This document shows positions 45,617-47,442 of a stretch of 64,000 bases of DNA, one piece after another. The notes under the pieces were generated by a model. It was given only the letters and a program-made list of their open reading frames with translations. It had not been told where the DNA came from and made no database searches. The stretch is from NCBI RefSeq assembly GCF_055900595.2, contig NZ_CM148325.1, one strand, 5' to 3'. Each line of letters starts with the position of its first letter. The stretch's first letter is position 1. Made by a program: the position numbers and the translations under genes.

Positions 45617-45634
45617 GTATCCCGCCGCAAGCCT

Positions 45635-45790
<156 letters not shown>

Positions 45791-45916: not shown

Positions 45917-46003
45917 GCGAAGGTGGCGGAATTGGTAGACGCGCTAGCTTCAGGTGTTAGTGTCCTTACGGACGTGGGGGTTCAAGTCCCCCCCCTCGCA
46001 CCA
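45917..46003 (+). tRNA. leuV: tRNA-Leu (anticodon CAG)
   Basis: GCGAAGGTGGCGGAATTGGTAGACGCGCTAGCTTCAGGTGTTAGTGTCCTTACGGACGTGGGGGTTCAAGTCCCCCCCCTCGCACCA; copy 1 of 3. Confidence 0.93.
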
Positions 46004-46031
46004 AAAACCACGTTGATATTGCTCGCACTGG

Positions 46032-46118
46032 GCGAAGGTGGCGGAATTGGTAGACGCGCTAGCTTCAGGTGTTAGTGTTCTTACGGACGTGGGGGTTCAA
46101 GTCCCCCCCCTCGCACCA
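46032..46118 (+). tRNA. leuP: tRNA-Leu (anticodon CAG), variable-arm variant (T at 46079)
   Basis: Identical to the flanking copies except C to T at tRNA position 48. Confidence 0.9.
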
Positions 46119-46151
46119 AACGAGGCGATATCAAAAAAGTAAGATGACTGT

Positions 46152-46238
46152 GCGAAGGTGGCGGAATTGGTAGACGCGCTAGCTTCAGGTGTTAGTGTCC
46201 TTACGGACGTGGGGGTTCAAGTCCCCCCCCTCGCACCA
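46152..46238 (+). tRNA. leuQ: tRNA-Leu (anticodon CAG)
   Basis: Third tandem copy, identical to copy 1. Confidence 0.93.
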
Positions 46239-46276
46239 ATTATCTTTACTTCCTTTCTTGTTTCTTCCTTGTTTTT

Positions 46277-46513
46277 TCATCCCTGATTCCAGTTCATTAT
46301 CATCAGCATAACGCCAGCAATAAGCGCCAGGCACGATGGTAGCAAAATGTAATGCCGTAACTGTTTGTGATACAACATCGCTGGCGTCAACACCAATCCC
46401 ATCAGAATAACAATCCGCCACTGATCCGGCGATATATCCACATACGTCAGCCCTGCAATCAGCAATCCTGGCAGCAACACTCCCCAACCACTGCCCAGCA
46501 TACGTTGCAACAT
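46277..46513 (-). CDS. yjjZ: small membrane protein YjjZ
   Basis: 78 aa from internal Met: MLQRMLGSGWGVLLPGLLIAGLTYVDISPDQWRIVILMGLVLTPAMLYHKQLRHYILLPSCLALIAGVMLMIMNWNQG. Confidence 0.7.
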   Translation of the reverse strand: MLQRMLGSGWGVLLPGLLIAGLTYVDISPDQWRIVILMGLVLTPAMLYHKQLRHYILLPSCLALIAGVMLMIMNWNQG

Positions 46514-46530
46514 GGTTTCATCTCTTTCAT

Positions 46531-46570
46531 TGATAATGATAACCAATATCATATGATAATTTTTATCATT
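46531..46570. promoter_or_regulatory. Fur box(es) in the yjjZ / fhuF control region
   Basis: TGATAATGATAACCAATATCATATGATAATTTTTATCATT, 17/19 match to GATAATGATAATCATTATC; second Fur-like site GCAATCATTATCATT at 46621-46635. Confidence 0.7.
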
Positions 46571-46653
46571 TGCAAGCCAGAGAAATCCCTTGCTATCGGG
46601 TAAACCTATCGTTAGGATTAGCAATCATTATCATTTAGATTACTATCCCGATT

Positions 46654-47442
46654 ATGGCCTATCGTTCCGCACCGCTCTATGAAGATGTTATCTGGCGAAC
46701 GCATCTCCAGCCGCAGGATCCTGGACTTGCAGAAGCAGTACGGTCGACGATCGCAGAAAATCGTGAACATTTGCTGGAGTTTATCCGCCTGGATGAACCC
46801 GCCCCATTTAGTGCCCTGACGCTGGCGCAATGGTCATCACCGAATGCGTTAAGTTCTCTGTTAGCTGTTTATTCCGATCATATCTACCGCAATCAACCAA
46901 CGATGATCCGCGAGAATAAGCCGCTGATCTCCCTGTGGGCGCAATGGTACATCGGCCTGATGGTGCCGCCATTAATGCTGGCCCTGTTAACGCAGGAAAA
47001 AGCATTAGATGTGTCGCCGGAACATTTCCACGTTGAGTTTCACGAAACCGGACGCGCCGCCTGTTTCTGGGTCGATGTGTATGAAGATAAAAACGCAACA
47101 CCACATTCACCGCAGCAGCGAATGGAAACGTTAATTAGCAAGGCGCTTGTTCCGGTTGTGCAAGCATTAGAAGCGACTGGAGAAATTAACGGTAAACTTA
47201 TCTGGAGTAATACCGGTTATTTGATCAACTGGTATCTGACTGAGATGAAACAGTTGCTCGGCGAGGCGACAGTTGAATCGCTGCGCCATGCCCTCTTTTT
47301 TGAGAAAACGCTCACTACCGGTGAAGATAATCCACTCTGGCGTACCGTGGTGCTGCGCGACGGCCTGCTGGTGCGCCGCACTTGCTGCCAGCGTTATCGC
47401 TTGCCGGATGTGCAGCAATGTGGTGACTGTACGCTGAAATAG
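46654..47442 (+). CDS. fhuF: ferric-siderophore reductase FhuF (C-terminal Cys cluster for 2Fe-2S)
   Basis: 262-aa ORF MAYRSAPLYEDVIWRTHLQP… ending …RRTCCQRYRLPDVQQCGDCTLK. Confidence 0.92.
   Translation: MAYRSAPLYEDVIWRTHLQPQDPGLAEAVRSTIAENREHLLEFIRLDEPAPFSALTLAQWSSPNALSSLLAVYSDHIYRNQPTMIRENKPLISLWAQWYIGLMVPPLMLALLTQEKALDVSPEHFHVEFHETGRAACFWVDVYEDKNATPHSPQQRMETLISKALVPVVQALEATGEINGKLIWSNTGYLINWYLTEMKQLLGEATVESLRHALFFEKTLTTGEDNPLWRTVVLRDGLLVRRTCCQRYRLPDVQQCGDCTLK

What the first reader, a model, noticed from the sequence alone, without database searches (positions are those of the whole stretch)
46531..46653. Fur boxes shared by divergent yjjZ and fhuF
Fur-box matches at 46531-46570 and 46617-46635 lie between divergent yjjZ and fhuF. 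This is consistent with iron-dependent co-regulation of the siderophore-iron reductase and the small membrane protein YjjZ.
Basis: partly seen in the sequence, partly recalled or inferred. Interest (0 to 1): 0.15.

Follow-up and report, generated by a model that had tools for sequence, protein, structure and literature searches.

The report
Known Fur operators between yjjZ and fhuF
The 140-base gap between the E. coli genes yjjZ and fhuF holds two binding regions for the iron-sensing repressor Fur that are already documented by experiment, so the finding is correct but ordinary; the one addition is that each region belongs to its own gene and the two became neighbours only after a gene between them was lost.

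Summary

- **Locus:** the window carries the E. coli rsmC–leuVPQ–yjjZ<>fhuF–bglJ locus.
- **Strong cluster (46526-46573):** it contains the two best matches to the 19-bp Fur consensus in the whole 64 kb (17/19 and 15/19). It maps onto the high-affinity DNase I footprint fhuF1 (46525-46577).
- **Weak cluster (46614-46638):** it reaches only 12/19, which is not significant alone. It maps onto the low-affinity footprint fhuF2 (46607-46660) of Chen et al. 2007.
- **Regulation:** ChIP-exo, expression and reporter studies place both genes in the core Fur regulon.
- **Refinement:** the clusters are not one shared operator.
  - The strong cluster covers the whole yjjZ promoter (TTGCAA-16-TATGAT, start 46540).
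  - The weak cluster covers the fhuF −10, transcription start and leader (start 46623/4).
- **Comparative evidence:** in 53 loci from most Enterobacteriaceae genera sampled, a GGDEF diguanylate-cyclase gene separates the clusters by about 1.3 kb, and each cluster stays with its own gene. Escherichia, Leclercia/Silvania and one other lineage lost that gene.

This layout fits the known weak Fur repression of fhuF despite the strong site nearby. Novelty: already known. Interest: low.

The parts
46277..46513 (-). yjjZ coding sequence: 78 aa, DUF1435, with three hydrophobic segments, so probably a small inner-membrane protein
   Evidence: ORF; RefSeq annotation of matching E. coli genomes; Pfam PF07256 E=9e-36; hydropathy peaks at residues 11-25, 34-48 and 56-72
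46525..46577 (.). Strong Fur cluster, equal to the published high-affinity footprint fhuF1. Overlapping Fur boxes lie at 46526-46573. It acts as the yjjZ operator.
   Evidence: 17/19 and 15/19 consensus matches, the top two in the window. Footprint 4603763-4603815 (old K-12 numbering) maps here. GATAATGATAACCAATATC-type box lies about 20 nt upstream of the yjjZ ATG in all 67 loci examined: at least 14/19 in all, 17/19 in 48.
46540..46575 (-). yjjZ sigma-70 promoter: -35 TTGCAA (46575-46570), 16-nt spacer, -10 TATGAT (46553-46548), transcription start at 46540
   Evidence: Consensus scan. TTGCAA-16-TATGAT listed by PMC3946193. Start at 4,605,777, active in vitro and de-repressed in a fur deletion (PMC10301672; that paper prints an 18-nt spacer, the sequence shows 16). 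Mapped through the K-12 annotation.
46578..46589 (.). Short spacer between the two regulatory modules. It marks where a GGDEF gene sits in most other Enterobacteriaceae sampled.
   Evidence: Homology to Citrobacter yjjZ-upstream DNA ends near 46577, and homology to Citrobacter fhuF-upstream DNA starts near 46578-46588. Gene order in 53 loci.
46590..46624 (+). fhuF promoter: -35 TTGCTA (46590-46595), 17-nt spacer, -10 TAGGAT (46613-46618; TATGAT in K-12), transcription starts at 46623/46624
   Evidence: Starts 4603717/4603716 given in PMC2189734 Figure 5 legend, mapped through the two start codons. The hexamers are read directly from the sequence. CTTGC and TAGGAT are 90-100% conserved across 80 loci, and these flanks were not forced by the search pattern.
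46607..46660 (.). Weak Fur cluster, equal to the published low-affinity footprint fhuF2. Best Fur-box registers are 46614-46632 and 46620-46638. It covers the fhuF -10, transcription start and leader, and acts as the fhuF operator.
   Evidence: Footprint 4603680-4603733 maps here. 12/19 matches 6 bp apart. Stays with fhuF when a GGDEF gene separates fhuF from yjjZ.
46621..46641 (+). Invariant 21-mer GCAATCATTATCATTTAGATT, spanning the fhuF transcription start and the first 18-19 nt of the leader
   Evidence: Exact match in 79 species-representative genomes of more than 25 genera, upstream of fhuF wherever the flanking DNA was held. Also present in 4 of 4 loci chosen through YjjZ rather than through this motif.
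46595..46631 (.). Candidate OxyR operator (inferred only), overlapping the fhuF spacer, -10 and start
   Evidence: 13 of 20 specified positions of ATAGnTnnnAnCTATn7ATAGnTnnnAnCTAT, among the ten best in the window. OxyR repression of fhuF is reported in the literature (PMC8115020). The paper that mapped the site could not be read.
46654..47442 (+). fhuF coding sequence: 262 aa siderophore-iron reductase with a C-terminal 2Fe-2S motif
   Evidence: ORF; NCBIfam NF007932 at 470.8 bits and TIGR03951; Pfam FhuF and FhuF_C

Best explanation
The yjjZ-fhuF spacer holds two separate, already characterised Fur operators, each lying on the core promoter of one gene. When iron is sufficient, Fe2+-Fur fills the strong cluster (46525-46577). 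That cluster covers the -35, spacer, -10 and start site of the yjjZ promoter, so yjjZ is shut off tightly. Fur binds more weakly to the second cluster (46607-46660). That cluster covers the -10, start site and first part of the leader of fhuF, so fhuF is repressed loosely and responds to small drops in active Fur. From the fhuF start the strong cluster sits at about -47 to -99, upstream of the fhuF -35, and is not placed to block RNA polymerase there. The two operators were ancestrally about 1.3 kb apart, with a GGDEF diguanylate-cyclase gene between yjjZ and fhuF. They lie about 80 bp apart in Escherichia because that gene was lost.

Shown by others' experiments: Fur protection of both regions, both transcription starts, and Fur- and iron-dependent expression of both genes. 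Shown here: the sequence matches, the coordinate mapping, conservation of each cluster with its own gene, and the gene-order distribution. Inferred: repression by promoter occlusion at each site, functional independence of the two clusters in E. coli, and the direction of the gene-loss event.
For: Consensus matches and their rarity. Footprints fhuF1 (high affinity, protected at 50 nM Fur) and fhuF2 (weakly protected at 50 nM), and the fhuF starts (PMC2189734). yjjZ start, sigma-70 promoter, strong in vitro activity and de-repression in a fur deletion (PMC10301672; PMC3946193; scan). yjjZ in the core Fur regulon across strains (PMC10164565; PMC7157518). Iron repression of Salmonella PyjjZ (PMC8432900).

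Comparative data: gene order is yjjZ | GGDEF, fhuF in 53 loci of many genera. The strong box lies 13-42 nt from the yjjZ ATG and the weak box 31-43 nt from the fhuF ATG. No conserved extra Fur box lies near GGDEF in 48 of the 53. Loss of GGDEF left different junction sequences and spacer lengths in Escherichia (140 bp), Leclercia/Silvania (153-166 bp) and strain LSJC7 (166 bp).

[quoted passage not shown] That fits only the weak cluster lying on the fhuF core promoter.
Against: No experiment read here mutates one cluster and measures both genes. A contribution of the strong cluster to fhuF repression in E. coli, through Fur spreading or cooperative binding over about 80 bp, is therefore not excluded. 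Chen et al. treat both clusters as fhuF promoter sites. The footprints and start sites come from K-12, which differs at four intergenic positions, two of them (46612, 46615) in the fhuF -10 region. A promoter-like site on the plus strand inside the strong cluster (TTGATA-16-TATGAT, 10/12) could be a second, tightly repressed fhuF promoter; no start site was found for it in the papers read. The set of 79 loci was selected by the weak-cluster 21-mer, so conservation of that motif itself is not measured without bias. Salmonella and Klebsiella pneumoniae were not among the hits.
Confidence: 0.8

Rival explanations
1. One shared operator. In E. coli the two clusters work as a unit: Fur bound at the strong cluster nucleates cooperative binding or a short loop to the weak cluster, and both clusters are needed to repress both genes. 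This is how some divergent iron-regulated promoter pairs are described.
For: The clusters are only about 80 bp apart centre to centre in a 140-bp spacer. Both genes are de-repressed without Fur. Fur is known to extend its footprint at higher concentration (PMC2189734). Three lineages independently reached the same close juxtaposition.
Against: In 53 loci of most genera sampled the clusters are about 1.3 kb apart and still conserved, each next to its own gene, so neither needs the other. The footprint shows two distinct protected regions with different affinities and an unprotected gap. fhuF behaves as a weak Fur target despite the strong neighbouring site.
Confidence: 0.13
2. The fhuF-proximal element is mainly something other than a Fur site, for example the OxyR operator or a functional 5' leader of fhuF mRNA, and weak Fur binding there is secondary. 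Fur control of fhuF would then come mostly from elsewhere.
For: Only 12/19 to the Fur consensus. The 21-mer is invariant in 79 species whose FhuF proteins are only about 54-80% identical to this one, tighter than a degenerate repressor site usually needs. 18-19 of its 21 nt are transcribed. An OxyR-like match overlaps it. No Shine-Dalgarno sequence is evident before the fhuF ATG (read directly from the sequence), so the AU-rich leader may matter for translation.
Against: Fur does protect this region in vitro. It contains ATTATC/GATAAT-type hexamers in 6-bp register. The leader has no stable structure (z = +1.27) and no Rfam match. Overlap of the -10, start, Fur and OxyR sites could by itself explain strong constraint.
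Confidence: 0.06
3. The matches are chance AT-rich sequence with no regulatory role.
For: The second site alone is not statistically significant. Fur-box consensus resembles promoter elements and AT-rich spacers.
Against: 0.02 matches are expected against the 17/19 match observed. Published footprints, ChIP and expression data agree. Conservation runs across more than 25 genera.
Confidence: 0.01

Closest known systems
E. coli K-12 fhuF promoter Fur sites fhuF1 and fhuF2 (Chen, Lewis, Shultzaberger et al., Nucleic Acids Res 2007, PMC2189734) and the database-recorded yjjZ promoter with its Fur sites (as cited in PMC10301672)
   Same: Same locus and same two clusters. The window is 136/140 identical to K-12 in the spacer, and the Fur-box cores are identical. 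Same promoters and transcription starts after coordinate mapping.
   Different: Four substitutions relative to K-12, including TAGGAT instead of TATGAT at the fhuF -10. The flanking coding sequences are about 9% diverged from K-12.
Divergent Fur-controlled promoter pairs of the enterobactin region (fepA-fes, fepB-entC, fepD-entS)
   Same: Back-to-back iron-regulated genes with Fur boxes in a short common spacer. Repression is by Fur binding over promoter elements.
   Different: Here there are two separate footprints of unequal affinity, each on one promoter. They are ancestrally unlinked, with a GGDEF gene between them in most genera sampled. How far the ent-region pairs use a truly common operator was not examined here; that comparison rests on general knowledge and on titles cited in PMC2189734.
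Composite Fur/OxyR control of iron genes (OxyR activation of fur; OxyR repression of fhuF, Zheng et al. 2001)
   Same: fhuF is listed as OxyR-repressed, and an OxyR-like match overlaps the fhuF -10 and start next to or over the weak Fur site.
   Different: The OxyR site position was only inferred here from a 13/20 consensus match, because the primary paper could not be read. A cell-free test of the yjjZ promoter showed no H2O2/OxyR response (bioRxiv 10.1101/2022.03.16.484621).

Membership tests
Fur operator (E. coli Fur box) | Match to the 19-bp consensus GATAATGATAATCATTATC, or arrays of GATAAT-like hexamers, beyond chance | tested here: met
   Strong cluster: 17/19 and 15/19, the best two in 64 kb, with 0.02 expected at 3 mismatches or fewer.
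Fur operator (E. coli Fur box) | The same sequence criterion applied to the second, fhuF-proximal site | tested here: inconclusive
   Best 12/19 (two registers 6 bp apart). 87 positions in the window score as well. Supported instead by the published footprint and by conservation.
Fur operator (E. coli Fur box) | Overlap with promoter elements of the regulated gene | tested here: met
   The strong cluster covers the yjjZ -35 to +1. The weak cluster covers the fhuF -10 to about +37. Coordinates were mapped.
Fur operator (E. coli Fur box) | Direct metal-dependent Fur binding | not testable with these tools
   Published DNase I footprints on the K-12 sequence with Mn2+-Fur (PMC2189734), and membership of ChIP-defined Fur regulons. 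Not repeated on this window's variant sequence.
Fur operator (E. coli Fur box) | Fur- and iron-dependent expression of the adjacent genes | not testable with these tools
   Literature only: yjjZ is up-regulated in fur deletions of nine strains; the yjjZ start is seen in a fur deletion and in vitro but not in wild type; fhuF::lacZ is iron- and Fur-responsive.
Single shared operator of a divergent promoter pair | One contiguous operator whose occupancy blocks both promoters, with the two genes kept together with it | tested here: not met
   There are two separate clusters with an unprotected gap. In 53 loci they are separated by a 354-aa GGDEF gene and each stays with one gene.
FhuF siderophore-iron reductase | Full-length match to the curated equivalog model, plus the C-terminal Cys-Cys-x10-Cys-x2-Cys 2Fe-2S motif | tested here: met
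   NF007932 at 470.8 bits (cut-off 300), residues 1-262 of 262. Pfam FhuF_C. The C-terminus reads ...RRTCCQRYRLPDVQQCGDCTLK.
DUF1435 (YjjZ) | Match to Pfam PF07256 over its full length | tested here: met
   122.3 bits (cut-off 22.9), residues 1-75 of 75. No NCBIfam model matches. Function unknown.

The most novel reading that the evidence does not exclude
The fhuF-proximal 'weak Fur box' may be part of a composite element that does more than bind Fur. Its 21-nt core (46621-46641) is identical in at least 79 species of more than 25 genera, although FhuF itself is only about 54-80% identical to this one in most non-Escherichia loci. The core spans the transcription start and the first 18-19 nt of a leader that is unstructured and has no evident Shine-Dalgarno sequence. 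It could combine Fur and OxyR operators with a leader needed for translation or for an unknown RNA-level control. Separately, the E. coli arrangement would be a secondary fusion of two independent Fur operators, produced by recurrent loss of a GGDEF diguanylate-cyclase gene.
Probability: 0.3. Interest if true: 0.3.

Novelty: already known. Interest (0 to 1): 0.12.

Why it matters
As a discovery it matters little. Fur control of fhuF has been used as a laboratory tool for decades (the Fur titration assay), both clusters were footprinted in 2007, and yjjZ is an accepted core Fur-regulon gene.

The practical value of this check has three parts.
- **Assignment of sites.** One of the stronger predicted Fur clusters of the E. 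coli genome (22.3 bits in Chen et al.'s genome-wide table) belongs to the uncharacterised yjjZ, and the weak one belongs to fhuF. This fits fhuF's reputation as a weak Fur target despite a top-ranked Fur site 50-100 bp upstream.
- **Evolutionary context.** A GGDEF gene was lost between the two operators. Anyone interpreting 'divergent co-regulation' at this locus should know that.
- **A caveat on the model strain.** The K-12 fhuF -10 (TATGAT) is not the common form (TAGGAT), which could affect how far K-12 reporter data transfer to other strains.

Tried and rejected
1. I considered that the E. coli yjjZ -35 (TTGCAA) was created as a hybrid at the deletion junction, because Citrobacter has TGTCAG there. 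I rejected this: TTTGCAAG also occurs in genera that keep the GGDEF gene (L050, L067, L079, L085).

2. I looked for a known RNA element or a structured leader in the spacer. Rfam reports only the three tRNA-Leu genes, and the fhuF leader folds worse than shuffled sequences.

3. I looked for an extra conserved Fur box serving the GGDEF gene in other genera. None is conserved: 48 of 53 loci have none at 13/19 or better beyond 75 nt from yjjZ.

4. I tried to read Zheng et al. 2001 (PMC95352) for the OxyR footprint and the primer extension. The paper is not held, so the OxyR site stays an inference from a 13/20 consensus match.

5. I searched for papers linking Salmonella STM4551 (a GGDEF protein that I recall, from memory only, as lying next to fhuF) with fhuF. 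None was found, so the Salmonella gene order was not verified.

6. One row of alignment A4 (L030) used wrong-strand coordinates and should be ignored.

7. The homologue search with YjjZ listed only Escherichia and Citrobacter in its top 120. The wider taxon sample therefore came from the DNA-pattern scan, which is biased towards genomes that keep the 21-mer.

Full report
**What is at the coordinates**

The region is the E. coli locus rsmC – leuV/P/Q (three tRNA-Leu genes) – yjjZ – fhuF – bglJ – yjjQ.
- yjjZ occupies 46277-46513 on the minus strand. It encodes 78 aa, matches Pfam DUF1435 (E = 9e-36) and has three hydrophobic segments.
- fhuF occupies 46654-47442 on the plus strand. It encodes 262 aa and matches the NCBIfam equivalog NF007932 at 470.8 bits against a cut-off of 300.
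- The two genes diverge from a 140-bp spacer, 46514-46653.
- The spacer is found in 5424 of 5426 complete E. coli genomes, at 95% identity or more in all but 8.
- It differs from K-12 MG1655 at four positions: 46515, 46582, 46612 and 46615.

**Is the observation more than chance?**

For the first site, yes.
- GATAATGATAACCAATATC (46532-46550) is the only place in 64 kb within three mismatches of the 19-bp Fur consensus, where 0.02 are expected.
- 46555-46573 scores 15/19, second best in the window.
- Further matches lie 6 bp apart at 46526, 46538 and 46549. This is the overlapping-hexamer pattern typical of Fur operators.

For the second site, sequence alone does not decide.
- The best registers (46614-46632 and 46620-46638) score 12/19.
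- 87 window positions do as well, which gives roughly a one-in-six chance of such a match in any 140 bp.

**What experiments by others show**

Chen et al. 2007 (PMC2189734) predicted two clusters here. One had sites of 16.1, 20.8 and 22.3 bits, the other sites of 14.6 and 9.3 bits. They then footprinted both with Fur.
- fhuF1 (4603763-4603815) has high affinity.
- fhuF2 (4603680-4603733) has low affinity.
- The fhuF transcription starts are at 4603717/4603716.

Their stated start codons (fhuF 4603686, yjjZ 4603827) are 141 apart, as 46654 and 46513 are in the window. Mapping through them gives fhuF1 = 46525-46577, fhuF2 = 46607-46660 and fhuF starts = 46623/46624.

The yjjZ start is recorded at 4,605,777 in current K-12 numbering, 27 nt before the ATG, which is window 46540. 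The promoter is sigma-70-like. It gave 1494 read starts in vitro, was silent in wild type and was transcribed in a fur deletion (PMC10301672). That paper prints TTGCAA-18-TATGAT. The sequence, the scan and PMC3946193 all give a 16-nt spacer.

Other regulon evidence:
- yjjZ is named in the core Fur pan-regulon of nine E. coli strains and is up-regulated without Fur; fhuF appears in the same paper's table of regulon genes by function (PMC10164565).
- A Salmonella PyjjZ-gfp fusion is repressed by iron and induced by chelation (PMC8432900).

**Anatomy**

| Element | yjjZ (minus strand) | fhuF (plus strand) |
|---|---|---|
| -35 | TTGCAA, 46575-46570 | TTGCTA, 46590-46595 |
| Spacer | 16 nt | 17 nt |
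| -10 | TATGAT, 46553-46548 | TAGGAT, 46613-46618 |
| Start | 46540 | 46623/4 |
| Fur cluster over it | strong, 46525-46577 | weak, 46607-46660 |

- Every yjjZ promoter element lies inside the strong cluster, and the promoter spacer is itself a Fur box.
- The weak cluster covers the fhuF -10, the start and the leader.
- Seen from fhuF, the strong cluster lies at about -47 to -99, upstream of the -35. There it would not be expected to exclude RNA polymerase.
- This layout fits an apparent oddity. [quoted passage not shown] Yet the 'fhuF' cluster is listed among the strong Fur clusters of the genome in Chen et al. (22.3 bits, against a top value of 27.4). On this reading the strong cluster is the yjjZ operator.

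**Comparative evidence**

YjjZ homologues were used to fetch loci from E. marmotae and three Citrobacter species. In Citrobacter a 354-aa GGDEF (diguanylate cyclase) gene lies between yjjZ and fhuF.
- The strong cluster stays just upstream of yjjZ.
- The fhuF promoter with the weak cluster stays just upstream of fhuF, after the GGDEF stop codon.

A scan of one genome per species for the 21-mer GCAATCATTATCATTTAGATT (46621-46641) returned 79 loci from more than 25 Enterobacteriaceae genera.
- tblastn shows the motif 31-43 nt before the fhuF ATG in nearly all loci that hold the downstream DNA. The exceptions are two Atlantibacter loci whose tblastn match starts at residue 24, and the upstream copy of the duplicated motif in Cedecea colo.
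- 53 loci have the complete order yjjZ(-) | GGDEF(+) fhuF(+), with a 244-268-bp yjjZ-GGDEF spacer.
- Genera with that order include Citrobacter, Enterobacter, Lelliottia, Kosakonia, Cedecea, Atlantibacter, Raoultella, Trabulsiella, Siccibacter and Franconibacter.

In all 67 loci that include the yjjZ start, a Fur box sits about 20 nt upstream of the ATG. It scores at least 14/19 in all and 17/19 in 48. This set was not selected on that sequence. Only 5 of the 53 GGDEF-bearing loci have any further Fur-like match nearer GGDEF.

Direct yjjZ<>fhuF juxtaposition occurs in three groups, each with a different junction sequence:
- Escherichia (coli, albertii, marmotae, whittamii and unnamed species), with a 140-bp spacer.
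- Leclercia and Silvania, with 153-166 bp.
- Strain LSJC7, with 166 bp.

Parsimony therefore makes the GGDEF-containing order ancestral and the E. coli arrangement a secondary fusion of two operators.

The fhuF -35 (CTTGC) and -10 (TAGGAT) are 90-100% conserved in the 80 aligned loci, and those columns were not forced by the search pattern.

**Mechanism and confidence**

I put 0.8 on two gene-specific Fur operators acting by promoter occlusion, tight for yjjZ and loose for fhuF.
- Binding, transcription starts and regulation are experimental results of others on K-12.
- Occlusion and independence are inferences.

The main rival (0.13) is cooperative action of the two clusters in E. coli. This cannot be excluded without cluster-specific mutants.

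A smaller rival (0.06) is that the fhuF-proximal element is chiefly an OxyR operator or a leader element.
- For it: the 21-mer is invariant across proteins that are only 54-80% identical, most of it is transcribed, no Shine-Dalgarno sequence is evident, and an OxyR-like match (13/20) overlaps it.
- Against it: the leader is unstructured (z = +1.27) and matches no Rfam family, and Fur does protect the region.

**Comparison with what is known, and novelty**

This is the same feature as the published fhuF1/fhuF2 sites and the database-recorded yjjZ promoter, so it is already known. It resembles the divergent Fur-controlled pairs of the enterobactin region but fails the test of a single shared operator.

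None of the papers I could read states two small points: that each cluster stays with its own gene, and that the clusters were brought together by recurrent loss of a GGDEF gene. Both are modest. I score interest at 0.12. The most novel reading not excluded is a composite Fur/OxyR/leader element at the fhuF start, with probability about 0.3 and interest about 0.3 if true.

**Limits**
- Zheng et al. 2001 could not be read.
- Salmonella and K. pneumoniae were not sampled.
- The 79-locus set is biased towards genomes that keep the 21-mer.
- No tool here can test binding or expression.

Noticed in passing
L004 191-1255 (C. amalonaticus); the same position in L005-L007, L010, L014-L019 and others; the corresponding place in the window is about 46578-46589: A 354-aa GGDEF diguanylate-cyclase gene lies between yjjZ and fhuF in 53 loci of most Enterobacteriaceae genera sampled. 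It is absent in Escherichia, Leclercia/Silvania and strain LSJC7, with different junction sequences, which implies two or three independent losses.
   Followed up: yes
window 46613-46618 (and 46612): The fhuF -10 hexamer is TAGGAT here, in five E. coli strains sampled across the identity ranking, in E. marmotae and in Citrobacter. K-12 MG1655 has the more consensus-like TATGAT, and E. albertii and E. whittamii have TAGTAT. The T at 46612 was not seen in any other sequence examined. K-12 reporter data for fhuF may therefore overstate promoter strength in other strains.
   Followed up: partly
window 46277-47442 compared with L002 (K-12): The coding sequences flanking the spacer are unusually diverged from K-12 for one species (yjjZ 91.1% nt and 71/78 aa; fhuF 91.5% nt), while the spacer is 97.1% identical. 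Over 46200-46800, 4377 of 5424 E. coli genomes are only 90-95% identical to the window. This suggests deeply split haplotypes of this locus with a conserved regulatory core.
   Followed up: partly
window 46514-46624, minus strand; proteins P0003-P0120: Many database versions of YjjZ are called at 91, 98, 100 or 133 aa, and a 115-aa ORF starts at TTG 46624 in the window. These extensions begin upstream of the mapped yjjZ transcription start (46540) and run through the Fur boxes, so they are probably start-codon miscalls. Some JGI records carry the name 'coenzyme F420-reducing hydrogenase delta subunit', which looks wrong.
   Followed up: partly
window 46530-46557, plus strand: A promoter-like site, TTGATA-16-TATGAT (10 of 12), lies inside the strong Fur cluster and points towards fhuF. 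PMC3946193 lists TTGATA-19-GATAAT as a predicted fhuF promoter in the same place. No transcription start for it appeared in the papers read. It may simply reflect the resemblance of Fur boxes to promoter hexamers.
   Followed up: no
L051 417-716 and 3543-3842 (Cedecea colo): A 300-nt direct repeat (97% identical) containing the fhuF promoter, the weak Fur cluster and the start of fhuF flanks an insert of about 2.8 kb that carries several ORFs. The fhuF regulatory region is therefore duplicated in this species.
   Followed up: partly
window 46624-46653: The fhuF leader (about 30 nt) is AU-rich and unstructured, and has no evident Shine-Dalgarno sequence before the ATG (…ACUAUCCCGAUUAUG).
   Followed up: partly
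window 45620-45790: Between rsmC and the first tRNA-Leu gene there are two copies of a GC-rich palindromic motif (…GGATGCGGCGTG(A/C)(A/T)CGCCTTAT(C/A)C(G/A)ACCTAC…). They look like REP/BIME-type repeats.
   Followed up: no
window 45917-46239: Three tandem, near-identical tRNA-Leu genes (leuV/P/Q in K-12) lie immediately downstream of the yjjZ stop codon on the opposite strand. The window's copies differ from each other by one base in the variable arm (GTGTCC versus GTGTTC).
   Followed up: no
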